Assembly: GCA_043228905.1 (NCBI GenBank)
Contig: JBHGNT010000009.1
Location: 4,898,001 to 4,962,000 of the forward strand
Reading direction: 5' to 3'
Origin: Azolla caroliniana
Lineage: Eukaryota; Plantae; Polypodiophyta
DNA: 64,000 nt
The position numbers and the translations under genes are program-made. Positions 39,744-64,000 of the stretch are shown one piece after another. The notes below the pieces were generated by a model. It saw only the letters and a program-made list of their open reading frames with translations. It made no database searches and was not told where the DNA came from. Each line of letters opens with the position of its first letter. Position 1 is the first letter of the stretch.

Positions 39744-42700
39744 TTAGGAAATAGAGGCATTCCTATCATGCCTTGATCCCTTTGATGGAGGTGCTTGGAC
39801 CGGGGGACCTTGATTGTGAACCACATTGCCTTTAGCCCTACATAGTTGAGCTTTGAATTTGCTTCCCATGACAGTTGAGACAATTCGCCAATGCGCTCGA
39901 AATTTCCCGGTTTTTCGAATCTCTTGCTTTATGCCAGAGCATTCCCTCTCAAGATCTTGTACTCGAAGCCGAATGTTGTCCATGTCCACCTTGAGGTTTT
40001 GATTTTCATGCCCCCACCCATCCCCTGTCCTCATGGCACCGGAAAGCATTCCACTCGGTCCATCGGTTACAGACTGTGTTCTGAAAGGCCGTGATGTGTC
40101 AGACATCATGAAGCAATTTGCTATGGCCGTCCTAAGTTGTAGTTGCTCGAAGAAGAGGACTTGCACAACAACACGCAGTGGCAACCGTTCATTTTGAGCC
40201 GCGTGTGTACAAGCCTCTAGTGAGAGCTTTTGACAATCCATAATCCTACATAATTGCTCCCTTTCATCTTCTTTTAGCCAAGGATGTGCCTTTCAAAAAC
40301 CAAGGGGAACCATCAACAAAACAAAAAAGAAGGTAAAAAAGCACTACCCCTGAACATGTCTTCAAAGCTTTAAAGACCAACCTTTAAGTAGATGTCAATG
40401 GCTCGATAGACACCATCGTCACAAATTCTCGAGTACTCGGGAAGAACTTCAGCTAGAGACAAGAATTTCATCGGCTTCAGGCTCACATCCGGGGCAATTT
40501 CGGCAAGGTAACCATCCAATATCCTTGCTACCATCATCATGGGGGACAAGGATGATGGGCTCATAAGAGGACCATCATAAATTGAGCTTTGCGGGGAGAG
40601 TGCCGACCCTTTCCCACCTCCGGACACAGACGACTGGTCGAGCAAGAGAAAATGGTCTAGGATCCGTTGGACGGTGTCGATGTCGTAGAGCGTCTCCACA
40701 TTGTAAGACAAGTTGGGTAGGAGCAAGTCTTCTAGGCTCGCTTGTTCAAGGTGTGCACCCATTCGTCTCTCGAGGCTACTCTTGCACTCAGGGCTCACAT
40801 TGAGTAGGATGGCACACCGAAGGAGGCCGGACAGGAACTTGGTGGACACGATGCCTTTTTGGGTCGGAAGGAGGCTCTCGATGGTCTCTAGGACTACTCT
40901 AGTGTCGTGGTCGGTCTCCAACGGGGAAATGGCGACCTCCGAGGTATGAACACAGGTACCTGAGGAGCCGGACATATGGTCGGAGCCGGCCATTTGGCAC
41001 GATCCGGACATCTGGCCCGAGCCTGTCATTTGGCATGATCCAGACATTTGGCTTGAGGTGTAGATATGGCCGCTCTCGGGTTTCGCCGATGCCGTCCGGG
41101 ATCGGGTGTTGGTGGCGAGGCCGGGGAGGTGTTTCTTCGCGTAGTGCACAAGGGCACCAGCGATGCTCTCGGGTCTCATGCCCCGGGATTCCATGGCGAT
41201 GACGGTTCTCCGGAAGAGCGGGAGGGATAGGACGGACACATCGTCGTGCCACCACCGGCCGGCCGATTCGGAGCTCGAGGATTGCGGCTTCTTCTTCGGC
41301 TTGGCGCCGGTGCTGATGCCATTCCAGAGGAGGGTGCCGCCGGGGCTCATGTGGTGGATGAGCAAGGGCCATCCATGGGGGTCAGTACAAGCCATGATGG
41401 CTATGGAGTCTACGCACAATGCGACCAAGCCGAGGTCCTCGGCGCGGGAGCAGACGCTCGGGGGCTCGCAGCTGCGGAGCGCGCGAACGCACTCCTTCCA
41501 GTTGCGGAGCACGACCTGGTTGAGGAACTCGTCGGCTTTCGCAGTGAGGTTGCCTTCGCCGAGGTCCTCGTTCATGTCGAGGTATTCGGACGCGCACCGT
41601 GCGGGGACCACGTTGCACGGGGTCAGCTCGAGTCTGAAACCGTAGCAGAATCTCGCCACGATCCCGAAGGTCTCGGGGCCGCCCGGTATGTCCGACAGAT
41701 CCAATGCCAGTTTCCTCTTCTTGTTCTCATCATCATCTGAGCTACCACTACTAGTACTACTAGTACTACTACTACTAATACTAGCATTGCCACTATTACT
41801 ACCTCCTCCACCACTAGAGGAGCTCTCTTCCACAAGCTTAGCAATCTTCCCACTCTTTGCAACCAGAGGAAACTGTTGGACACAGAAAGAAAAGAAAAGA
41901 TTTCAATAAATAAATAAGTAATGTGGTTACAATTTCAAGTGTTAAACCCCTTAATATGCCTAAAGCCCTGAATTCCTCCCCTTAACATTAGAGGCACCAA
42001 AGGTTTATTAATATGCATTTATTTATTACTTAGCAGTAATGAAATTAAATGTTTAAGAAGAGATGTTCTTCCATGGTTTTAGGGGGTGTTAGGGTTTTTA
42101 ATTAAGGGCTGATAAGTAAGTAGTAAATTTGCATAATAATCCCTTGCTATCTCCAAAGTTTTTCAGAAGGGGAATTCAGGGCCTTAGGCATATTAAGGCT
42201 ACAATTGTAGTTATAACCTTAATATGCCAGACATATTAAGGTTATAACTATAATATTTAGGCATATTAAGGTTACAATTATAGTTATAACCTTAATATAT
42301 CTGGCTTATTAAGGTTTCAATTTCAGTTATAACCTTAATATGCCTAATCAGCCCTTAAATTAAAACCCTAACACCCCCTTATACAATGGAGGAACCTCTA
42401 TGTTTGTTTTTCTTAACATTTAATTCATTACTGTTGACAAGAGAATGCTGTTTTATTCAACTTAGGTAGGGCTCCTGATATATGGTACCTTATGTAGATG
42501 GAAGGACATGTCTTGCACCTTAATTGTGATGTCACTTGGGAGGCCAGATGTGCAGAACCTGTCATCGGAAAAGAGTGTTATCTGCTCGCATTTAATTTGA
42601 GTTGTGTCTCTCTTCATCACATACACAGATTTATGTGAACTTTTGACTGGTTATGGCATAATTAAGGACGGCTTTATTGTTAATGGTTCATAATGTTCCA

Positions 42701-43263
42701 AGGAAGGCCTAATGATGTCTATTGAGCTATGCCTTACGTTATTGAGCAGATTTAATTGTCTTTTCAGCACAATTAATGGCTTAATCAAAGGCGTTGGGTA
42801 AATTAAGAGAGTTTTCTGGCGTAATTAGGTGCTTTAAGCAACGGCATATTTAATAAGAGAATTAGCACATTGTTTCCAGAATGAATTAAGCAAAAGGCAA
42901 ATTTAAAACCAAATGTTTTTTATGTAACAGTTTTCAGCATAATTCATGAGATAAGAAAAAGGCGTTAAGAGAATATTAAATTGTGACATTATTATAGCAT
43001 AATTAATGCTACATTATGAGCTACATAGCAATTAGGGGGTCAAAAGGACTCTTTAAATGATAAATAAATCAATTGCATTTTTAACATTAACGAATTGCCT
43101 TAATCAAATGCACAGTTTGAATTGAAAAATTTTGGAGACTAAAATTAGGTAACTTCTTATTACATATCAGGACACAGAGAGTTTGAGAGAGAGAGAGAGA
43201 CCATGTTTGCTCCTTGCACAGGAAAGTGTCAGGTTTGGAACCAAGCTTGAGGCAAGCAGCCAT
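39744..43263 (-). CDS. NPH3/RPT2-like (NRL) BTB/POZ-NPH3 domain protein; exons 43263-43202, 42558-42489, 41872-40382, 40289-39744
   Basis: [14 protein letters not shown] / [24 protein letters not shown] / FPLVAKSG...DIPGGPETF...FCYG...WWHDD...[13 protein letters not shown] / AHPWL...[33 protein letters not shown]. Introns are GT-AG and phases are consistent; 2169 nt (722 aa). Confidence 0.95.
41945..42436. repeat. Interlocked inverted-repeat (foldback/MITE-derived) segment in NRL intron 2
   Basis: CCTTAATATGCCTAAAGCCCTGAATTCC pairs with GGAATTCAGGGCCTTAGGCATATTAAGG. AGGGGGTGTTAGGGTTTTTAATTAAGGGCTGAT pairs with ATCAGCCCTTAAATTAAAACCCTAACACCCCCT. Internal GGCATATTAAGG...CCTTAATATGCC palindromes. 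Confidence 0.8.
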
Positions 43264-43744
43264 AGAAGAAGAACGAAAGAAAGAAAGACAGAGAAAAAGT
43301 ACGTTAGTAAAGAAAGAAGCAGAGAAGCGTGATGATGCGTATAAGGCGATGGATTCCTATGCAGGAATTATAATTGTAACAAACTATGAGGCAATTATTA
43401 TTAGGGTTTCCATTTGCAAATTTTGAGAGAGAATTACAACACAGGCGATGGTATTTGCTGCTGGTGGGGTGGGGGGGGGGGATTCAAATGGGGAGGAGAT
43501 GTGGCAGGGATTTTGAGAAGAAAAGCAAAATGGAGGATCCATGGGGAGGTAGAAGTTAGCTATGGAAGAGGAAAGAGAAATCAAACAGAGGAAAGAGACA
43601 GAGAAGAGGAACATGCTCTCTCTGGCAAAAGATAAAGAAAAAAAGGCAGGCCACTGTCCAAATGGAAGGTCCTTCCTTTCTTCTCTATGTGTGTTAGTAT
43701 GTATGAGTGTCAGAGTTCTTCTCTATACATACATTACCTTCCTA

Positions 43745-52498: not shown

Positions 52499-55122
52499 TG
52501 TAATAGTCTTATTTCAAAAGGTTACAATACAAGAATAACACTTTCAACAACAACATGAACTAGGTGACAAAGCCAGTTATATATCAATTGGGCTAGGGCA
52601 ACTACCCTTCAACATATTTACATAATTGTCCTAAACCTAGTATGTCCGAAGTGGGACAGTGTGAATACGACCATTATACACCCATATTTAACACTCCCCC
52701 GTAATGGGCGTATACACTAAGGAGAGGCCTGTAATATAAAACAAGAGATACAAGATATACAACGAGATGCTAGGATAGATCGGATTATTGCCGAATTGGT
52801 AATGGCCGAAATAAACAGAGGCCAAATCGGTTGGTTCAAGAGTAGAATCCGGGTCGGCTGTCCAGGCCGATTGTTCGGAGCTATCATTGTTGTCCGACTT
52901 GATTAGACTGATTTCTCCTTAAGCCCATCTGGTGCGTAAGTGACCGTAATTAGTCCATTGCGACCCACTTAGTCATCCCATCTGATATGTTTTCGTCCAT
53001 GGAGATCTTCTCGAGGCCGAGCTTACCTGAGGTTAAACAGTCCCGAACGAAGTGGTATCGAACGTCGGTGTGCTTCGAGGTGTTGTGGTGGACAGGGTTC
53101 TTCAACAAGGCGACAATACCCTGACTGTTGTTGTAGACAACTGGAGCCGAATTGGGATTGGCTTGTCGAAACGTACACGCTTGCCGACCAAGCCATAAAG
53201 CCTCTTTCTCTGTGTCAGACGCGGATACATATTCAGCTTCGGTGGTGAAAGTGGCCGTGCACCCATGAAGTTTCAACTTCCATGAAATTGCTCCATTACC
53301 GAGTTGAGTCGGTGTTGCCGACTACTCTTGGGTTCTTGTTCGGACTGAAGAGGATGCCAAGGTCTTGTGTGCCTACCAAATATCTGAACACATGCTTGAC
53401 TGCTTTCCAATGTGATCGGCCAGGGTTGTGCATGAATCTGCTAACGACTCCTACGGTGTGAACAATCTTTACATTAAGGAGCCGACTACCGGTGCATACT
53501 ATACTGACTTCATATCTTCCCCCTTCAGACTAGATGTTGGAGAGTCTTGTTGAGACAATCGAAGGTTAATGGGGAGCGGGGTCGAAGCAGATTTGGCCGA
53601 TTGCATGTTCACGAATTCCAGGACACGTTTGATGTAGTCGGCTTGGGACAAAAATGATTGTCGTTGATTCCGAAGCCAACTAATCTTCATGTTCCGAGTA
53701 TGTGTCGAGCCGGACCTAGGTCCTTCATTGCAAACTTGAATTGCAGTTGTTGAACATGATCGACACATACCGGCCAGGAGAGTAGCATGTCGTCCACATA
53801 GAGGATGAGAAAGATGGGAGACCCATCTTGAGTTGTTTTTTAGAAGAGGCAACGGTCCTCATTGCTCTTGGAGAAGTCAATCAATTGTATAAAATCGTCA
53901 AACTTCTTATACCACTGCCGGGGAACCTGCTTCAAGCCATAGAGACTCTTCTTGATTCAACAGACGAGACGTTCACGACCGGTTTTAATAAAGCCTTTCG
54001 GTTGTTCGAGATAGATTTCCTCCTTTAGGTCACCGTGGAGGAATGCCGTCTTCATGGCTAGTTGGATCAACTCCAAATCTTCGGCAACCACTACGTCGAG
54101 TAAGAATTGAAGGGTGGCCATTTTCACCACCAGTGAAAAGATCTTGTCAAAGTTGACGCCATATTGCTATCAGAAACCCTTTGCGACTAATTTGGCTTTG
54201 AATTTGGAACTTGCTGAATTAGATGTCTCTTTGAGTCGATAAATCCACTTGCATTGAAGAGCACGTTGATTTTTTGGCAAGTTGACTAAGGCCCATGTCA
54301 TTTTCACCACTGGTGAAAAGATATTGTCGAAGTCAATGCCATATTGTTGTTAGAAACCCTTTGCGACTAATCTGGCTTTGAATTTGGAACATGCGAAATT
54401 AGACGTCTCTTTGAGTCAATAGACCCAATTGCACGGAAGAGCAGCAGGTTGACTAAGTCCCATGTGTTATTATGCTGAATGGAGTTCATTTCAGACTCCA
54501 TAGCCAGATGCCATGTGGCCGAATCGGCGCATGCCAATGCTTCTTCGTAGGATGTCAGCTCGTCGGGGTCTGTGAAAAAGAGACCATGAGAGTATCTCTC
54601 CTATATCTGAGACAATCGTTCAGATAATCTTGGGACGACTGGGCTCGCCGGATCATCATTGATGATTGTCTCATGAGTAGCCGATCGCTACTTAGGTGCC
54701 TTTCTGAGACAAATGGTTTTGAAGTTTCGGCCGTTGCCATATTTTGATCCATGGAGGCGGCTTGTCATGCTGCCGCTCTCGTATTATGGGCTGGGCCATC
54801 TGAAAATGTGACTCGTCTAACTTCCATCGGTCTTTTGGCCGGCTTGTGCATCTCTAACTTGTTGAAAATAACGTCCAAACTTCAGACGACTTGTCTATTT
54901 TCTGGATCCCAGAGTCGGTAGCTAAATTTTGCCGTCGAATCCATAACTAAAGACAATGCATTTTCTAGACCGCGACTCAAGATTTCAGCGATCATTGTTC
55001 AACAGAAGGGTGAATACTTTGCATCCAAAAATCCGCAACTTCTCATAAGTCGGCCTCTGGCCGGTCCAAAGCTCTTGCAAAATTTTGAAGTCCTAGAGGC
55101 CTACTTGGTGACATGTTGATTA
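52499..55122 (-). mobile_element. Ty1/copia 3' half (integrase end, RT, RNase H, PPT, 3' LTR), interrupted by another copia
   Basis: RNase H TTEAEYV..KEALWL..KHTDVRYHFVRD. RT LYVDD near 53790. PPT (CTCCCCC on plus, 52694-52700) next to the LTR end ...TTTAACA at 52693. About 180 bp of RT is duplicated in tandem (54120-54470). The left LTR boundary is uncertain and may extend to about 52225. Confidence 0.85.
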
Positions 55123-58100
55123 TGTTGAGATTCAGTCCCTCCGGATGGGGACCGGTTGAGCCGGATCGGAGGATCCGGAGGAGGAAGCCGGACCGGATGA
55201 AACCGGAAGGAGTTCAGTCGGATCCGGTATGAACCGTGAAGAGAGACATATTTGTAAATATGTTTCTTATGGGCCGTTGAGGTCACATTTGTAAATAGCT
55301 CGTAAGTTATATAAGTATAAATATAACTAGGGCAAATGGTAATAGAGTTAGTTGTTATAAGATGTATGACTATTATTTTGAGTTGAGTGCTACTATTGTA
55401 TAGACAGAGAGTGAGAGTGAGTGAGAGAGAGAGAGAACAAAAAGTAAGTTTCTATTGTAAACGCTTGTTAGCAAGGTCACAGAGCTAGAGGTCGGTGCCT
55501 CTGAGCTTCACATTATATCTCTCTATTTCATATAATGATTTGGTTCGGAGTTAGAAAACTCTCGTGGTTTTGTCTCCTTGAGGTTTTCCATGTTAATATC
55601 TTGTGTCATCTTATTTTGTGTGCAAGTGTGTATCAATCTACTTGGTTTTTGTTTGTTTCTTCCATTGTGTGTTTGAGACTCGGTTGTGGCTGATCACTAT
55701 TTGTAACAATCTCGTATCAGAGCTTGGTTTCAAGCCTCAATAGAAAATGGAAGATCCATTCGGTGGCATGTTCAAGCTCACCAGCTCCAACTACTCAGTG
55801 TGGATGTCGAAGATGAGGGACATGCTGGTGGTCAAAGATCTCTAACTGCCGATATAGTTTCGAGATGCAAAACTAGACAAAATAGATGCGCCGACCTGGG
55901 AGGTGATGCATATGAAGATGACAACCTACATTCGATGCTTCATCGACATGAGCTTGTACAACAACTTCAATGAAGAGAGTAAGGCTCATGAACTCTAGGA
56001 GAAGATAGGCATCATGTTTCAAAACAAGAATGTTGTAAATCGAGTCTTCTTATTCTGGAAGTTAGTGAGAATCAGATATCAAGACGGCTCTAGCATGGCG
56101 GAACACATGAATGCCTTCCAAGGGCTTATAAATTGAACTACCTCATTGGAGGTACCTCTAGCCGACGAGGTACACGCGTTGTTACTGCTTGGTTCCCTCC
56201 CAGATAGCTGGGAGACGTTAGTCGTCACTTTGGGCAACGCCGGGACGGAAGGTAAACACCTATCCCTAGCGAGAGTAAAATCAAGCTTGCTGGATGAAGA
56301 GGCTCGTCAGAAAGACAAGGAAGTGATCTCCGACTCAAAAGCTCTAGTTATCGAAACCAACACACAACGAGGGAGAGGCCGGAATCAGAGTCCCCAAAAC
56401 TGGGAAAAGTCATGGACGAGGTCAAAGTCAAGGGGGAGGCCCACGTCTTCTATTGTGGGAAGCCATGGCATTTCTAGAAGAACTGCTGACACTTCCTGAA
56501 GGAGAAAGGGGGAGCCGACAATGCCGACTCGAAGAAGGGTCTGGACTGGAAGAGTTTGGATCAGAAAGGAACATCGACAATCACGACAAGTGAAGAAGAA
56601 CTGCCGCTTATTACCAAGGAGAGCGAGCTACACCTTGTAAGTGACGAAACGAAATGCGAGGTCGACTCTAGAGCGTCGTTCCATCTGACCCCTGATCAGA
56701 AGTGCTTTGCATCCTATAGAGCCGGATATCACGACTGTGTGCGGATGGGGAATGAAGGTGCATGCTGAATTGTCGACATAGGAGACGTGTGGCTAGCAAC
56801 GTCAATCGAGTGCAAGTTACTATTGAAAGATGTCTGACACGTTCTGGAGGTTTAGTTGAACCTGATATCAGCTAATCGTGTAGAAGATGAAGGCTACACA
56901 GGCAGCATCCAGAACAGAGTCATGAAGTTCAACAAAGGAAGCTTGATCATGGCCCAAGTCTGAAAGATCATCACCTTGTACCTGATGCATGCCCGGATCT
57001 GTTGGGAGGAATTAAATGTTGCATCTGACACTGTTGGTGAGATGTGGCACATGAGGTTGTGTCACATGAGCCATAAAGGGATGAGAATACTTGCTGAGGA
57101 TAACCTCATTCCGGAGGTGAAAGACGTGTAGCTTGAGAGGTGCACCGATTGTTTGGCCGGCGAGCAGAACCAAACCTCTTTCCGGTCGAGAACACCAAGA
57201 AGATGGAAAGAATCACTCGAGCTCGTGCATACCGATGTATGCCAAGTGGATACGAAGTCACATGCTGGGTTGCAGTACTTCGTGACGTTCATAGATGACC
57301 CCAACCGAAAGTTGTGGGTCTCACCGCTGAAGACAAAGGATCAGGTACTGACTGTCTTCAAGGAGTTCCATGCAAGAGTGGAAAGAGAAACCGGCCGAAA
57401 GCTGAAGGCAGTTCGAGCCGACAATGGTGGAGAGTACCGGGGCAGTTTGAGGAATATTGCCGGTCAAAAGGAATCAGTCTCGAATTTACCGTGCTGAAGA
57501 TGCCGGAGCTGAACGGATTGGCCGAAAGGATGAACCAGACGGTGATGGAGAGAGCCTGAAGCATGCTGGCACATGCTAAGTTGCCCAAGACGTTTAAGCT
57601 GAGGCGCTGATGACGACGACCTATGTGATAAACATATCACCCTCAACACCCTTGGAAAGAAATACACCATAGAGAGTATGGACCAGTAAAGACGTGTCTT
57701 ATCGGCATTTGAGGGCATTCGGTTGTCTTGCCTATGTGCATGTAGCAAAGGACAAGAGAGCAAAATTGAACCCGAAATCCCGACCATGCATATTCCTCGG
57801 GTGATGATGAGTTCAACTATCGAGTATGGGACTTGGTCGACAAGAAGGTCTTTCAGAGCTGGGACATAGTCTTCATGGAAGACAAGACCATTACCGACTA
57901 GGAGTTGGAGAAGAAGATAACGGACTCTGGGTCGAACAACAGAGATCGGTCGAAAGATACAAGGACTGATCTGATCGGATGCCGGACGACACTCGATGAA
58001 CAAGCTAGATTCGGGTGAGAAACTGAGCCAACCGAAGAAGAATTGGACATCGGAACCAGACAAGACCCCAAACGACACCGGAACCAAACAAGACCCCAAA

Positions 58101-59752
58101 TCGGATTCAGATGAAGAATAAACGAAGGAACCGGTTGTCGAAAACCAAGGATGGAGATAGATAGATAGATAGATAGATTATATTATATTATCGTCTTCGA
58201 AGGTCAAATATGACCTATGAGACCAAAAATATCACATCTCACGTGATATGTGTGAAAGTGAGTAGTGACTCTCGATGTTCAAGAACTTTACCAATCAATT
58301 GTGCAATCGAGAGTGCACATTGTGGTTGTGAGAGGAATTCATGCAAGGATTGGGCTCGGTTGAAGAGATGTGGAAAGCATGGTCGAATATGATCAAAGGT
58401 AGAGCATTGTATCAAAGTGTGATACTTAGACTCGCAAACTTGTTTAGGGCAAAGTGTGCATAGCCGACCACTCTCGTAGTGAGCTTCACCACTAGCTGGA
58501 TGAGCCAGCCATACCACATTTTCACCTATCAATCTGTTGCTAATTCTATCGGTATTTAGATTTCCTTTAGTAGAGTCATAAGTGAACAGAAAGGGATTTT
58601 CAAAGAATTTGGTAGTTTGTTTCAAGTTTTATGAAAATATCCTGGTATCTCGCGAAATAACTCATTTTGTGCCAACATCTTGAGGTTTTTCTATAAGCAG
58701 GCTTTTTTTTATTTCCCTCGTAACTCATACTGGTTCTGGTTTAGCGACTTCCGTTGAAACGATATAAATGATGTTTTCTTTATGGTATCTTTGTTTGACC
58801 AACCCCTTATCGTATTTGAACCGATGACTTACGCATTACCATGGCGATCAACCGGTTCATGAGCAATCTGGGAAGAGAACACTAGGCCGTCGTCAAGTGG
58901 ATACTCCGGTACCTAAAAGGCACCTTGAGGTTGTGCCTCCGATTCGGCTCAAGTAAACCCCAACATGAAGGATTCACTGATTCAGACATGTCGGCTGATA
59001 CAGACATCAGTCGGTCTACATCCAGATATGACATTTGCAGGGGGAGCCATATCGTGGCAGTCAAGGCTGTAGAAATGCGTTGCACTAGCGACAATGGAAG
59101 CGGAGTACATGGCGGGCATGGAAGCTGGCAAGGAAATAGTCTGGATGAAGGACTTCCTCATAGAGTTGGGGATCTAACAGGAGGAATACTGGCTCTACTG
59201 TGACAGTCAAAATGCCATGCACCTTGCAAAGAACACAACCTACCACTCCAGGATGAAGCACATCTAGCGTAGATACCATTGGCTTTGGGAGAGAGTAGAA
59301 GATCAAGACTTCACTCTAGTGAAGATCCACACAAAGGAGAACGGGTCGGATATGCTGACAAAGGTGCTGTCAACCGACTAGCTAGACTCGTGCCGGAGAC
59401 AGATTGGGTTAACCAAGACCCCATGTGGGAGTGAAGGGGGAGATTGTTGAGATATCGGTCCCTCCGGATGGGGACCAATCGAGCAGGATCGGAGGATTTG
59501 GAGGAGGAAGCAAAATCGGATGGATCCGAAAGCCGGACTAGATGAAACCGGAAGTAGTTTGGCTGGATCCGGTATGAACCGTGAAGAGAGACAAATTTGT
59601 AAATATGTTCTTATGGGCCGTTGAGGCCACATTTGTAAATAGCCCGTAAGTTATATAAGTATAAATATACCTAGGGAAAATGGTTATAGAGTTAGTTGTT
59701 ATCTGATGTATGATTATTATTTTGAGTTGAGTGCTGCTATTGTATAGAGAGG

Positions 59753-59785
<33 letters not shown>
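55123..59785 (+). mobile_element. Ty1/copia LTR retrotransposon (decayed, RT deleted, 3' LTR interrupted)
   Basis: 5' LTR 55123-55708. PBS TCGTATCAGAGC at 55712-55723. gag from 55747 (LLLLGSLPDSWE), integrase (LELVHTDVC, RADNGGEY, NGLAERMNQT), RNase H 58970-59380, PPT GAAGGGGGAGA. The 3' LTR starts at 59445, matches the 5' LTR, and breaks at the (GA)n tract near 59785. Confidence 0.92.
58156..58510 (-). mobile_element. RTE-like LINE 3' end inserted in the copia
   Basis: RLCTLCPKQVCESKYHTLIQCSTFDHIR (C-terminal CCHC motif of non-LTR ORF2), then a short 3' UTR and a simple-repeat tail (TAATA)n/(TCTA)n. Confidence 0.7.
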
Positions 59786-59789
<4 letters not shown>

Positions 59790-60244
59790 CAAAGCATGCT
59801 ACGGTGTACCAAAAAAGTACCGTTTTTGACCAATAAAAACACGAGTACTTTATAAAAAATATTTTAAAAAAATTGAAAAATTTTATAATCTTTTTAGGGA
59901 GTGGGGTGGGGGTAGTACACATTGCATTTAATGGGGGGAAACAATTGTGAGGTATTCAGGAGTCAGGAGTGATTTGGGGGCTATTTCCCCCTCACTTTTT
60001 ATTTAGCACACCACATTAATTGAATGTGGCGCTTCTCACCATTTTGGCGCATCCCCTTCCTCCTTCCAACCGAGCCCATCTCTGTTTGTCGTTCTCTACA
60101 TCTCAGGTATTCACAACACGCGAATGTCCCCAAGATTTGGGGTCTTGCCATTCCTTATCTACGAATCAAACCTAGGTGGAAATGATCAAGCGTTCTTTGT
60201 GTCACACATCTGAGCCATCTTCGCCTTTCGTCGCTATGTCTTCT

Positions 60245-60905
60245 CCTTCCCTCGGTATGTCTTCTTCTTCCCTCGGTATGTCTTCAAAACTGTTTTTTCA
60301 GAACTGTTTTTTAAGCATTGGTTATTTAAGAATTGTTTTTTAAGGTTTAATATTTATTGATTATCCTTTGAAATGGAAACTTGAGGATTTATTTATGCTG
60401 AAAAGATAATGTCTTCATCATCATCATGATTATTATTGTCAAGTTCTAGATCTTAATAGAATGATAATCTTCCCTCGGTATGTCGTCTCCTTCCCTCGGT
60501 ATGTTTTCAGAACTGTTTTTTAAGCATTGGTTATTTTAGAACTGTTTTTTAAGGTTTCATATTTATTGATTATCCTTTGAAATGGAAACTTGAAGATTTG
60601 TTTATGCTTAAAAGATAATGTCTTCATCATCATTATGATTATTATTGTCAAGTTCTAGATCTTAATACAATGATAATCTTCCCTCGGTATGTCGTCTCCT
60701 TCACTCGGTATGTCTTCAGAACTGTTTTTTCCAGAACAGTTTTTTAAGCATTGGTTATTTCAGAACTGTTTTTTAAGGGTTTATTATTTATTGATTATCC
60801 TTTGAAATGGAAACTTGAAGATTTATTTATGCTGAAAATATTATGTCTTCATCATCATCATGATTAGTATTGTCAATTTCTCGATCTTAATAGAATGATA
60901 ATCTT
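60245..60905. repeat. Tandem repeat, about 210-bp unit, three copies
   Basis: CTTCCCTCGGTATGTC...AGAACTGTTTTTTAAGCATTGGTTATTT...TTATCCTTTGAAATGGAAACTTGA...TCATCATCAT repeated three times. Confidence 0.9.
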
Positions 60906-61094
60906 CTGCCATTGATGTTAGACACTTGTGGATAACACCTGAAACTTGACTTTTATATTAGCCTGTTGGTATGGTTGTCTTTCTTAGTATTGTATTGTTT
61001 TGTTAAAGGAATATATGTGTGTGGTATTATCGTACATGTTTATTCGAAAACTGGTTGATGTGGTTAATTAGGTACTGAAATAACAAAAAATTAG

Positions 61095-62756
61095 GTGCTG
61101 GAATACATGAGAGTGGCAATGGTAGATGTCAAGGAGAGTGACTTGTCATGTAGCAATTCTATGTCTGAGAGGAGCAAGAGACGGGTGGTTCTTCACATAG
61201 TTCGTTATTTACTAGAAGTAATTGAGAGATTTACCAAGGAAGATCGTAGGGATATTATCTCTAGAGTGTTACACCATCAACTTTTGAATGAGTGCATGGA
61301 AAATATTAAGATTAGGGACCAATGTGTTTCAGAGGAGATTGTAGAGTCTATGAAGTCGTCACTACACTTAGTGAAAGGGGTAGAGAGCATAGATAAGCTT
61401 GGCGCAAAAAGAGCATCCCTTCACATGGTTGTAAATGGTACAACCAAAAACAAATATAGTGATACTAAAGTTGCCTTAGCCCTTGGTATTCAAAGAAGAA
61501 ACTTGAGGAAGCATCAGACAAATATACAGTCAAATCAATTTAAGTGGTTGGGGTTAGGCCGTAGACGACGATGTGATGCCTTGTCTCAAGAGATTGTTGA
61601 GAAAGTGGATTCCATTTGGACAAAAAACACTCATGTCTCACTGAATAAAAAAGATGTATGTAGACAACGTATAAGTCGGGGTAGGTACCAAATTCACCCA
61701 AGACACTTCTTGGAGATGACTAAGGTAATTCTTTTGTTTTTATCTATTTGTTTTTAAATATTTTTTGTATTAAAGGATTCTATTAACATTTGTTATTTAT
61801 TGAGTGATGTAGGCGGAATTGTTCATGAACTTCAAAGACCAACATCCTAACATCAATCTTGGATTTCGCAAGTTCCAAGGTTTGAAACTGTTTTTTGTTA
61901 GAAAGTTAAAAGAGAGGAACACATGTTGTTGTGTGTACCACATTAAAATGGACATGTTAAGGCTTGGCCTGAATAGTATGCGTACTGATTCTAAGGGTAT
62001 ACACGGGGATGGGTGTGTTTGCACTTGTGAGATATGTAGACCAAATGGGAGTGATAATAGATGTAATGCACGAAACACGACTTACGCATCAGTTTCTGTG
62101 ATATGGGGGTCTTTTGTTTGTGAAAAACAACCATCATCTGAGTGGCATAATCGTACATGTCTTCTAAGAACATGTAAAGTTTGCCCACAACCACCATTTT
62201 GTAGACAAGACCTTGATGTAGATAACTGTCATATTGTGAAATATTTAGAGTATGTGACAGAAAATATAGGTAAGGGTCTTGTTAGTAAGCGTATCAAGGA
62301 AGTATATAAGGAGACATGTGCTACTACCCTTGTCTCAGAATTTAAGAACCAACTCGAGGAGTTCATTCCACATAACTTTAGGAGTTATTGGCAAAATTCA
62401 CAGTTCAAGGAATGTATAAATAACTTACCACCAAATGTTATAGTATCCGTTATTGACTTTGCAGAGAACTATACGTTTAAAGTTCAAAATGAGGTTCAAT
62501 CAATGCATTGGTATAATGACCAATGTACAATACTTGTACATATTTGCTACTGGAGAAAAGACGTCGAGTTACATAAGAAATCAATATTCTACATTTCAGA
62601 TGATAAAAAGCACGATACACTATTTGTTCAACATTGTTTTAAGCTTCACCATGCAGATTAATTGTCCTTGGATGTTAACTTTAATCGGCATTGGGTTTGG
62701 TTTGATGGTGTTGCCTCACAATTTAAGGCGGCCCGGTCCTTCTACTTCATTGCAAG
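61095..62756 (+). pseudogene. DDD/E transposase pseudogene (exons ~61073-61723 and 61813-62756)
   Basis: RRRRCDAL and WTKNTHVS..KKDV in exon 1; intron GTAATT...ATGTAG at 61724-61812. Cys-rich TCCCVYH, then DFAENYTF..QNEVQSMHW, ISDDKKHD and HWVWFDGVASQFK. In-frame TAA at 62659-62661 and a GT donor after 62756. The Sola2 assignment is from recalled motifs only. Confidence 0.75.
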
Positions 62757-62864
62757 GTGAGGAAATAATCCATATGTTTGGTACTTATAAATGGAAGTCT
62801 ATTTTGGTAATACTCCATAGTACTTAGAAATGTTTGTATAAAATACTGAATGACATGCACCTAG

Positions 62865-63377
62865 ATTCACTAGTACTGATTATGTATCCGTAATTTACAA
62901 CATAGTATTGTCCCCAAAGGTGCACATGTGCAAGTACTAAATTATAACTTAGGATTGCCCCCTCTTAGTAATGTTTGTACTAATGAGTAACTTAGCTATA
63001 ATCAACTTTGTTCGTTAGTACTAATTTATAATTTAGGATTGTTCTCTCTCATTAATACTAATTATTAACTTAGTACTATCCAACCATGTTCATTAGTACT
63101 ATCCATTAACTTAGTACTGTCCAACTTTATTCATTAAGACCAACTTATAACTTAGGACTGTCCATTGTCATGCATTAGTACTAATTAATCACTTAGAACT
63201 GTCCAAGTTTGCTCATTAAGACCAACTTATAACTTAGGACTGTCCGTTGTCATGCACTAGTACTAAATTATAACATAGGATTGCCCCCTCTCAGTAATGT
63301 TTGTACCAATTCATATCTTAGCTATATTCAACTTTGTTCGTTAGTACTAATTTGTTCATTAGTACTATCCATTAACT
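62865..63377. repeat. Degenerate TAGTACTA-rich minisatellite in the transposase intron
   Basis: Many TTAGTACTA / AACTTAG units with higher-order duplications (e.g. 63120-63185 vs 63205-63270). Confidence 0.75.
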
Positions 63378-63633
63378 TGTTAGGAAACAAGTCCCTCCGG
63401 ATGGGAAATGAGAAGAACAGTACTGATGAGCAAACTCGGCCGAGGCCGAAACAGGATTTGGAGTACCCAGCTACGGAAGACTCGGTGAGAACCGGATGAC
63501 AAGTACCCGGCAACGGAAGACCCGGTGAGAATCGGATGTGGTGTACCCGGCAAGCGCCGGATGAGGAGTACGCGGCTACGGAAGACCCGGTGAGAACCGG
63601 ATGAGGAGTACCCGGTGAGAACCGGATGTGGTG
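63378..63633 (+). mobile_element. Copia-LTR-like 5' fragment
   Basis: TGTAGGAAACAAGTCCCTCCGGATGGG shares GTCCCTCCGGATGGG and the AACCGGATG repeats with the LTR starts at 55123 and 59445. Confidence 0.65.
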
Positions 63634-63903
63634 TACCAATGCATTGATTGAACCTCATTTTGAACTTTAAACGTATAGTTCTCTGCAAAGTCAATAACGG
63701 ATACTATAACATTTGGTGGTAAGTTATTTATACATTCCTTGAACTGTGAATTTTGCCAATAACTCCTAAAGTTATGTGGAATGAACTCCTCGAGTTGGTT
63801 CTTAAATTCTGAGACAAGGGTAGTAGCACATGTCTCCTTATATACTTCCTTGATACGCTTACTAACAAGACCCTTACCTATATTTTCTGTCACATACTCT
63901 AAA
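63634..63903 (-). repeat. Inverted duplicate of transposase segment 62244-62513 (270 bp)
   Basis: The reverse complement matches 62244-62513 with no mismatch that I could see. The ORF track shows the same peptide TENIGKG...QSMHWY on both strands. Confidence 0.95.
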
Positions 63904-64000
63904 CTAGAACAATGTCATGATGAGGGTAAACAATAACTTAACATTCCTATCAATTATAGACAACAACCTATATACAATAAACTTATCGTTAGTACTAAAG

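What the first reader, a model, noticed from the sequence alone, without database searches (positions are those of the whole stretch)
62244..63903. Mu-killer-like locus: inverted duplication of a transposase catalytic core fused to an LTR fragment
Seen: 270 bp of the transposase (62244-62513, covering DFAENY...QSMHW) recurs inverted at 63634-63903, apparently identical. It is joined directly, at a GTACC junction, to a copia-LTR-like 5' fragment (63378-63633). Known: maize Mu killer is an inverted partial MuDR duplication whose hairpin RNA yields siRNAs that silence the family in trans. Inference: read-through from the transposase promoter would give a 270-bp stem with a ~1.1-kb loop, and an LTR-driven transcript would be antisense to the transposase. 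Either could make this a natural family-specific silencing locus. The identity implies a very recent origin.
Basis: partly seen in the sequence, partly recalled or inferred. Interest (0 to 1): 0.8.

Follow-up and report, generated by a model that had tools for sequence, protein, structure and literature searches.

The report
Inverted repair scar in dead transposon
A broken jumping-gene copy in a plant (likely a fern) carries a perfect 270-base mirror copy of part of its own enzyme gene, likely a scar left by repair of a DNA break; an RNA running across it would fold into a hairpin, but nothing shows that it is transcribed or silences its relatives.

Summary
The inverted repeat is real: 62244-62513 and 63634-63903 are 270/270 complementary. 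The source is exon 2 of a Sola2-like DDD transposase, not a Mutator element. This copy is dead: in-frame stop at 62659, a 6-bp deletion, and 15 residues that at most one aligned relative shares. Both arms carry three of these rare residues, so the right arm was copied from this decayed copy. It bridges a truncated copia LTR and repeat DNA that likely belongs to the same transposon, with 4-nt microhomology at both ends. That is the signature of a templated filler insertion at a repaired deletion. The LTR piece has no TATA box, so an LTR-driven antisense transcript is unlikely. The right arm lies behind the intron-2 splice donor. No terminal repeat is duplicated, unlike Mu killer. Transcription, siRNAs and trans-silencing were not testable. 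The scan noted similar hairpin scars in other genomes. Verdict: an ordinary repair scar with hairpin potential; a working killer locus about 7%.

The parts
55123..55708 (+). 5' LTR of an older, decayed copia element (TG...CA, PBS-like word after it); context
   Evidence: gag_2 and rve Pfam hits inside the element
59445..59784 (+). 3' LTR of the same copia element, after a polypurine tract; keeps TATAWA words at 59652 and 59660; cut off in its (GA)n tract by the DNA transposon. Points into the transposon; a possible but old promoter (LTR pair 8.9% diverged)
59785..61094 (+). Inferred 5' non-coding part of the Sola2-like transposon, with 209-bp tandem repeats; the exact terminus and target-site duplication are not established
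   Evidence: sequence, repeats; boundary inferred from the break in the LTR alignment
61095..61724 (+). Transposase exon 1 (open frame from 61095; GT donor at 61725)
   Evidence: ORF; tblastn with P0015 covers 61122-61733; splice words read from the sequence
61813..62756 (+). Transposase exon 2 with Sola2 motifs; broken by an in-frame stop at 62659-62661 and a 6-bp deletion near 62237
62244..62513 (+). Left arm: the template segment inside exon 2 (DFAENY...QSMHW block)
62757..63377 (+). 5' part of transposase intron 2 with AGTACT-rich tandem repeats; GT donor at 62757
   Evidence: relatives' reading frames end at the same FIAR position
63378..63637 (+). First 260 bp of an LTR of a very abundant retroelement family (copia-like by its 5' words), inserted in intron 2 and truncated; no TATAWA word; no 3' end or second target-site copy in view
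   Evidence: (depth, polypurine tract in loose ends)
63634..63903 (-). Right arm: perfect inverted copy of 62244-62513; microhomology TACC (63634-37) and TAAA (63900-03) at its ends
63900..64000 (+). Repeat DNA that likely continues the same transposon downstream (same orientation); AATAAA at 63976
   Evidence: repeat depth like the transposase; 13-mer shared only with intron 2, 3 matches against 0.04 expected

Best explanation
This is a perfect 270-bp inverted copy of part of exon 2 of a dead Sola2-like transposon, likely pasted in as templated filler when a DNA break was repaired, and likely without a silencing role. Inferred order of events: a Sola2-like element jumped into the 3' LTR of an older copia element and decayed; a younger LTR retroelement inserted into its second intron at 63378; a break then removed all but the first 260 bp of that retroelement plus an unknown stretch of the transposon; the left broken end primed on TACC in exon 2, 1.1 kb upstream and on the opposite strand, copied 270 nt, let go, and rejoined the far end through TAAA. 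Shown: the inverted identity, both microhomologies, the shared rare alleles, the stop codon, the truncated LTR. Inferred: the break, the repair pathway (polymerase-theta-type end joining or a similar template switch), the identity of the right flank, and the lack of function.
For: Both junctions have 4-nt microhomology: the LTR's own internal unit continues GTGTACCC where the junction reads GTGTACCA, and family contigs of the right flank start at 63900 and carry other letters before it. The chance of at least 4 nt at both of two random junctions is 2e-4 to 9e-4. Deletion with an embedded templated insertion and about 3 nt of microhomology is described as the TMEJ footprint in Arabidopsis (PMC10923293, passages). 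Local template: both arms carry T171 (0 of 15 aligned relatives), N179 (1 of 15) and E182 (1 of 15); at 62323 family contigs read the other base in 93-100% of depth in 4 of 4 runs, and the mirror site 63824 shows the same. Dead source: stop at 62659 where family contigs differ in at least 99.9% of depth in 4 of 4 runs; 15 of 282 residues shared by at most one aligned relative. Right flank: its 13-mer TCGTTAGTACTAA occurs elsewhere only in intron 2, twice, same strand (3 matches, 0.04 expected). No TATAWA in the LTR piece. The nearest host gene found on the left (NPH3 family, first exon near 43250) reads away from the locus.
Against: No read of the source individual was available, so the junctions are not independently confirmed. 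The flank assignment rests on one 13-mer and on similar depth; no full-length family member was obtained. 270 nt copied from 1.1 kb away is a long, distant filler; the Arabidopsis passages say fillers often map to the immediate flank. The laid runs hold at most 0.40 of the stretch's words and may be other individuals or species, so some 'rare' alleles may be lineage or subfamily differences. Lack of function is inferred, not shown: the old 3' LTR keeps a TATA box pointing into the element, an AATAAA lies 73 nt past the right arm, and about two thirds of the arm's 24-mers (167 of 247) avoid the five rare alleles used in that count, so siRNAs, if made, would likely match relatives.
Confidence: 0.72

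Rival explanations
1. A working Mu-killer-like locus: a + strand transcript from the transposon's promoter or the old 3' LTR runs through both arms, folds into a 270-bp stem, is diced, and silences Sola2 relatives in trans.
For: The stem would form (269 of 270 pairs, duplex -486 kcal/mol). An Ac killer allele is likely transcribed from the transposon's own promoter (bioRxiv 10.1101/2020.01.07.897926, Discussion). Ferns have DCL and RdDM genes, with a 24-nt peak mainly in Polypodiales (PMC5569507, passages). Upstream TATA words and an AATAAA just past the right arm. 167 of 247 arm 24-mers avoid the listed rare alleles.
Against: Source copy decayed before it was duplicated. The right arm lies behind the intron-2 donor and would likely be spliced out if the next exon survives (inferred). 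No terminal or promoter sequence is duplicated, whereas Mu killer has two TIRA copies and a ~4-kb hairpin (PMC3440606) and the Ac killers have 1.8-3.9-kb repeats of the 5' end. The LTR piece lacks a TATA word. The family is already multi-copy and mostly 90-99% alike to this stretch, so a late, single hairpin may have had nothing active to silence (inferred).
Confidence: 0.07
2. Assembly or library artefact: a chimeric long read or amplification template switch made the inverted copy, or polishing made two slightly different arms identical.
For: 100% identity; the structure lies 100 bp from the window's end; inverted chimeras with short microhomology are known from amplified libraries (recalled, no call).
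Against: Two switches are needed (onto the opposite strand and back), and the far side rejoins repeat DNA that shares an intron-2 word in the original orientation. Four-base overlaps are too short for a graph misjoin (inference). The window has no N.
Confidence: 0.1
3. The right arm came from a second family copy inserted in reverse, from alternative transposition, or from capture of transposase RNA by the retroelement.
For: The family is multi-copy; alternative transposition makes such repeats in maize.
Against: The arms share alleles that are rare in the family. Neither arm end is a transposon terminus; both are inside exon 2 with microhomology. The LTR has no 3' end or second target-site copy in view.
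Confidence: 0.06
4. The rearranged form is a mobile fold-back derivative that has spread as a small family, as noted for other windows of this scan.
For: Such derivatives were reported elsewhere in the scan (AI notes, not checked here).
Against: Every loose end shown at 63899-63903 continues into ordinary transposase or ordinary flank sequence (12 loose-end rows shown). No look-alike stretch was found in the scan's other windows.
Confidence: 0.03

Closest known systems
Templated (filler) insertion at a repaired deletion, polymerase-theta-mediated end joining in Arabidopsis (PMC10923293, passages)
   Same: Deletion with an embedded copy of nearby DNA; short microhomology at the joints.
   Different: Here 270 nt from 1.1 kb away and inverted; the passages read describe fillers often mapping to the immediate flank. 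The pathway itself was not tested.
Mu killer of maize (PMC3440606, abstract, introduction and start of methods)
   Same: Inverted partial duplication of transposase coding sequence that could give a fold-back RNA.
   Different: Muk has two TIRA copies and a proposed ~4-kb hairpin read through from a host gene, and silences an active MuDR genetically. Here: 270-bp internal arm, 1.1-kb loop, no terminus, dead Sola2-like source, no host gene found pointing in from the left, no functional data.
Ac killers p1-ww-id1 and id4 of maize (bioRxiv 10.1101/2020.01.07.897926, abstract, sections 16 and 19)
   Same: Natural inverted repeat of DNA-transposon sequence; one allele likely uses the transposon's own promoter.
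   Different: Made by alternative transposition, contain 1.8-3.9 kb of the Ac 5' end, dsRNA and siRNAs shown. Here the ends are internal with microhomology.
Stabiliser loci OSt and NSt of Antirrhinum Tam3 (bioRxiv 10.1101/2024.06.24.600476, abstract and part 1 of 3 of the Discussion)
   Same: Rearranged transposon copies as family-specific suppressors.
   Different: Their small RNAs come from the 5' terminal region with transposase-binding motifs; the arm here is coding sequence only.
Sola2 DNA transposons (PMC3627910, passages and supplementary alignment)
   Same: DFAENY, Q.EVQS.HW, ISDD..HD, SDG.ASQ.K motifs in the window copy or its close relatives; HGKG..D in longer homologs.
   Different: Termini and 4-bp target-site duplication could not be checked; this copy is broken.

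Membership tests
Mu killer-type transposon killer loci | Natural inverted duplication of partial DNA-transposon sequence | tested here: met
   270-bp perfect inverted copy of transposase exon 2
Mu killer-type transposon killer loci | Duplication includes the element's terminus or promoter region, arms of kilobases (true of Muk, Ac killers, NSt) | tested here: not met
   Arm is 270 bp inside exon 2; compare
Mu killer-type transposon killer loci | A promoter placed to transcribe both arms | tested here: inconclusive
   No TATAWA in the LTR piece; TATAWA in the old 3' LTR 2.6 kb upstream of the left arm and at 59851; NPH3 gene reads away; DNA right of 64000 not seen
Mu killer-type transposon killer loci | Transcript across both arms that forms dsRNA | not testable with these tools
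   Folding is predicted; no RNA data were laid
Mu killer-type transposon killer loci | 21-24-nt siRNAs from the arms | not testable with these tools
   No small-RNA reads were available
Mu killer-type transposon killer loci | Dominant, heritable silencing of active family members in trans | not testable with these tools
   Needs crosses or population comparison; family activity is unknown
Templated filler insertion at a repaired break | Insert is a copy of nearby DNA | tested here: met
   Identical to 62244-62513 and shares its rare alleles
Templated filler insertion at a repaired break | Short microhomology at both junctions | tested here: met
   TACC and TAAA
Templated filler insertion at a repaired break | Insert sits in a deletion | tested here: inconclusive
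   LTR is truncated at 260 bp without 3' end; flank likely the same transposon; deletion size unknown
Sola2 transposons | Transposase motifs of the Sola2 alignment (DFAENY/DFSENY, QS.HW, SDG, HGKG) | tested here: met
   Window copy and relatives against published Sola2 rows; HGKG seen only in longer homologs, its exon is outside the window or deleted. No profile or tree test was run.
Sola2 transposons | Terminal inverted repeats and 4-bp target-site duplication | not testable with these tools
   3' end lies outside the window and no genome is held; 4-bp TSD

The most novel reading that the evidence does not exclude
A break-repair accident turned a dead Sola2 copy into a family-specific silencer in a fern: an old LTR or the element's own promoter drives RNA through both arms to the AATAAA just past the right arm, and the hairpin yields siRNAs that silence intact Sola2 relatives. 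It would be a killer locus outside flowering plants, for the Sola superfamily, and made by repair rather than by aberrant transposition; the listings of four literature searches showed no such case.
Probability: 0.07. Interest if true: 0.65.

Novelty: new member of a known kind. Interest (0 to 1): 0.22.

Why it matters
As a repair scar it is a tidy example of how nested transposon DNA in a large plant genome is deleted and patched, and of how perfect transposase hairpins arise by accident. If it proved to be transcribed and diced, it would show that ordinary break repair can create transposon-killer loci and would give a handle on how silencing of a DNA-transposon family starts in ferns, where this is little studied. 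Nothing found here shows that step.

Tried and rejected
No whole genome is held, so copy number, the element's 3' end and the DNA beyond 64000 could not be examined. Run search: 23 runs listed, 20 holding part of the stretch, best share 0.40, no RNA holder listed; this is no evidence on expression. Contigs of 4 DNA runs (3 samples) were laid twice. None of the 32 of 118 pieces shown at junction 2 bridged it; these are shallow contig sets of probably other individuals, so this neither supports nor refutes the junction. Junction 1 was not resolved (15 of 175 joints shown, none a strand change). Table 3 showed 40 of 350 rows, so the list of rare alleles is incomplete. A 22-mer of the right flank hit one metagenome contig, L001, which matched over 27 nt only and encodes no transposase: a chance hit, dropped. 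Viral contigs gave nothing for the transposase, the LTR word or the flank word. Pfam has no family for the transposase. Site 62434, a minority base at DNA level (mirror 63713), did not pass the at-most-one-relative filter at protein level, so it is not counted among the three rare residues. The idea that the locus lies in an intron of the NPH3 gene was rejected: exons 1 and 2 map near 43250 and 42500. The idea that the right flank is an inverted 3' end of an intron (it reads ...TTCTAG in the arm's sense) was rejected because family contigs continue through that place and share TAAA with the arm. The original Sola paper and a transposase-signature paper were not held; classification rests on a supplement of PMC3627910, of which files 13 and 14 of 14 were not searched. 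Supplements of the two bioRxiv preprints were not seen and may hold details of arm lengths and siRNA maps.

Full report
Observation. The repeat finder gives arms at 62244-62513 and 63634-63903, 270 nt, 100% complementary, 1120 nt apart; it is the longest of 258 inverted pairs in the window and the next is 71 nt at 87%. An exact string test and blastn (E 3e-139) agree.

What the source gene is. The left arm lies in a 282-residue frame (61813-62661) with no Pfam family but many homologs: 37 longer proteins and 109 of similar length. Six named hits are from the fern Adiantum nelumboides (best 58% identity), others from Klebsormidium and Taxus, so the host is likely a fern; this is inferred from a transposon protein and is not firm. 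The motifs DFAENY, Q.EVQSMHW, ISDD..HD and SDG.ASQFK in the copy and its relatives, and HGKG..D in longer homologs, match the rows of a published Sola2 transposase alignment (PMC3627910, supplementary file 2 as searched). Sola elements encode DDD transposases, have 4-bp target duplications and are known from some plants such as Physcomitrella (PMC10741241, passages). The gene has an 88-nt first intron (61725-61812) and a second intron from 62757; close relatives' frames end at the same FIAR position. The element sits in the (GA)n tract of the 3' LTR of an older copia element (LTRs at 55123 and 59445, 8.9% diverged over 270 aligned bases). Its 5' end near 59785 is inferred from where the LTR alignment stops.

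The source copy is dead. It has an in-frame stop at 62659-62661, before the SDG block, which here reads FDG. Contigs of four DNA runs (three samples) differ from the window at 62660 in at least 99.9% of depth, and show six extra bases near 62237. Against 16 close relatives (76-97% identical; 14 of them from a 59-member cluster), 15 of 282 residues are shared by at most one relative, including a conserved proline and a cysteine. Caveat: the runs hold at most 0.40 of the stretch's words and may be other individuals or species, and relatives from shallow assemblies may be collapsed repeats, so their open frames do not show that the family is active.

The right arm was copied from this copy. Three of the rare residues lie in the arm: T171 (0 of 15 aligned relatives), N179 (1 of 15), E182 (1 of 15). 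At 62323 the family reads the other base in 790 of 845, 28113 of 28113, 3598 of 3598 and 7394 of 7522 depth units, and the mirror site 63824 shows the same difference. Since the arms are identical, the duplication came after these changes. With no difference in 270 bp the 95% upper bound on its age is about 0.85 million years at the rate of 6.5e-9 used for Ceratopteris (PMC6890710, passages; computed), if polishing or gene conversion has not levelled the arms.

Junctions. The LTR piece starts with TG at 63378; family contigs carry a polypurine tract before that place, so it is the 5' end of a + strand LTR of a family about a hundred times deeper than the transposase (table 2). It shares a 16-nt 5' word with the older LTR. 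Its internal unit reads GTGGTGTACCCGG, and the junction reads GTGGTGTACCAAT, so TACC (63634-63637) belongs to both sides; with the family's C at 62514 the overlap would be six bases. At the other end, family contigs of the flank begin at 63900 with other letters before them, while transposase contigs run to 63903 and continue into normal exon 2, so TAAA (63900-63903) belongs to both sides. Chance of at least 4 nt at both of two random joints is 2e-4 to 9e-4. The flank is itself a repeat of similar depth to the transposase, is non-coding in six frames, and shares a 13-mer found elsewhere only in intron 2, twice, on the same strand (3 matches, 0.04 expected). It likely continues the same transposon; I could not obtain a full-length copy to prove it.

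Mechanism. The simplest history is a deletion that removed most of the inserted retroelement and an unknown part of the transposon, patched by 270 nt copied from the opposite strand 1.1 kb upstream. Deletions with microhomology and embedded templated insertions are the described footprint of polymerase-theta end joining in Arabidopsis (PMC10923293, passages). The break and the pathway are inferred. Alternative transposition, which made the maize Ac killers, engages element termini; neither arm end is a terminus.

Could it silence? An RNA across 62244-63903 would form the stem (269 of 270 pairs). Read-through from the left remains possible: the old 3' LTR keeps TATA words at 59652 and 59660 and points into the element, and an AATAAA lies at 63976 (one of three on this strand in 4.3 kb, so weak). 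Against this, the right arm is behind the intron-2 donor and would likely be spliced out if exon 3 survives, the copy is decayed, and the NPH3-family gene on the left starts near 43250 and reads away. Ferns have the RNA-silencing genes, with strong 24-nt peaks mainly in Polypodiales (PMC5569507, passages). About two thirds of arm 24-mers avoid the five rare alleles used in the count (167 of 247), so siRNAs would likely match relatives. Transcription, siRNAs and trans effect were not testable here.

Comparison. Mu killer has two TIRA copies and a proposed ~4-kb hairpin read from a host gene (PMC3440606, abstract, introduction, start of methods). The Ac killers have 1.8-3.9-kb repeats of the Ac 5' end with dsRNA and siRNAs shown (bioRxiv 10.1101/2020.01.07.897926, abstract and sections 16 and 19). 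The Tam3 Stabilisers act through small RNAs from the 5' terminal region; that paper counts six transposon-specific repressor loci (bioRxiv 10.1101/2024.06.24.600476, abstract and first part of the Discussion). This locus meets the first defining feature (inverted partial duplication), fails the shared feature of a duplicated terminus, and is untested on the functional ones. It resembles them in shape and cannot be filed with them. The listings of four searches showed no killer locus for Sola or in ferns; only listings were seen for most of those papers. Earlier notes of this scan describe similar hairpins in dead transposons of other genomes, mostly read as repair scars (AI notes, not checked, seen after I had recorded the same reading); no look-alike of this stretch was on record.

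Verdict. Real sequence feature, most likely a young repair scar in a dead Sola2-like element (0.72); artefact 0.10; working killer locus 0.07. Interest 0.22; a new member of a known kind.

Noticed in passing
window 59785-64000: A multi-copy, intron-containing Sola2-like transposon family in what is likely a fern, with homologs in Adiantum nelumboides, Klebsormidium and Taxus proteins annotated as hypothetical. Sola is described as uncommon in flowering plants; the listings did not show a study of Sola2 in ferns.
   Followed up: partly
window 55123-64000: Three-level nesting: old copia element, Sola2-like element in the (GA)n tract of its 3' LTR, younger LTR in the Sola2 intron.
   Followed up: partly
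window 60246-60906: About three tandem copies of a 209-bp unit in the inferred 5' non-coding part of the transposon.
   Followed up: no
window 62925-63377: Intron 2 is built of degenerate 41-bp units rich in the palindrome AGTACT; TTAGTACTA occurs 7 times in the window, all between 63015 and 63989.
   Followed up: partly
window 42061-42399: Nested inverted repeats (71-nt arms at 42184-42254/42277-42347 and 56-nt arms at 42061-42116/42344-42399) in an intron of the NPH3-family gene; looks like a small fold-back element.
   Followed up: no
window 39744-43270, minus strand: NPH3-family gene with four exon blocks.
   Followed up: partly
window 53000-54750, minus strand: Decayed copia-type reverse transcriptase and RNase H-like pieces, with a 145-bp direct duplication at 54119-54263/54299-54443.
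   Followed up: no
window 59803 and 63630: The 10-mer GGTGTACCAA occurs at the inferred transposon 5' end and across junction 1; probably chance.
   Followed up: no
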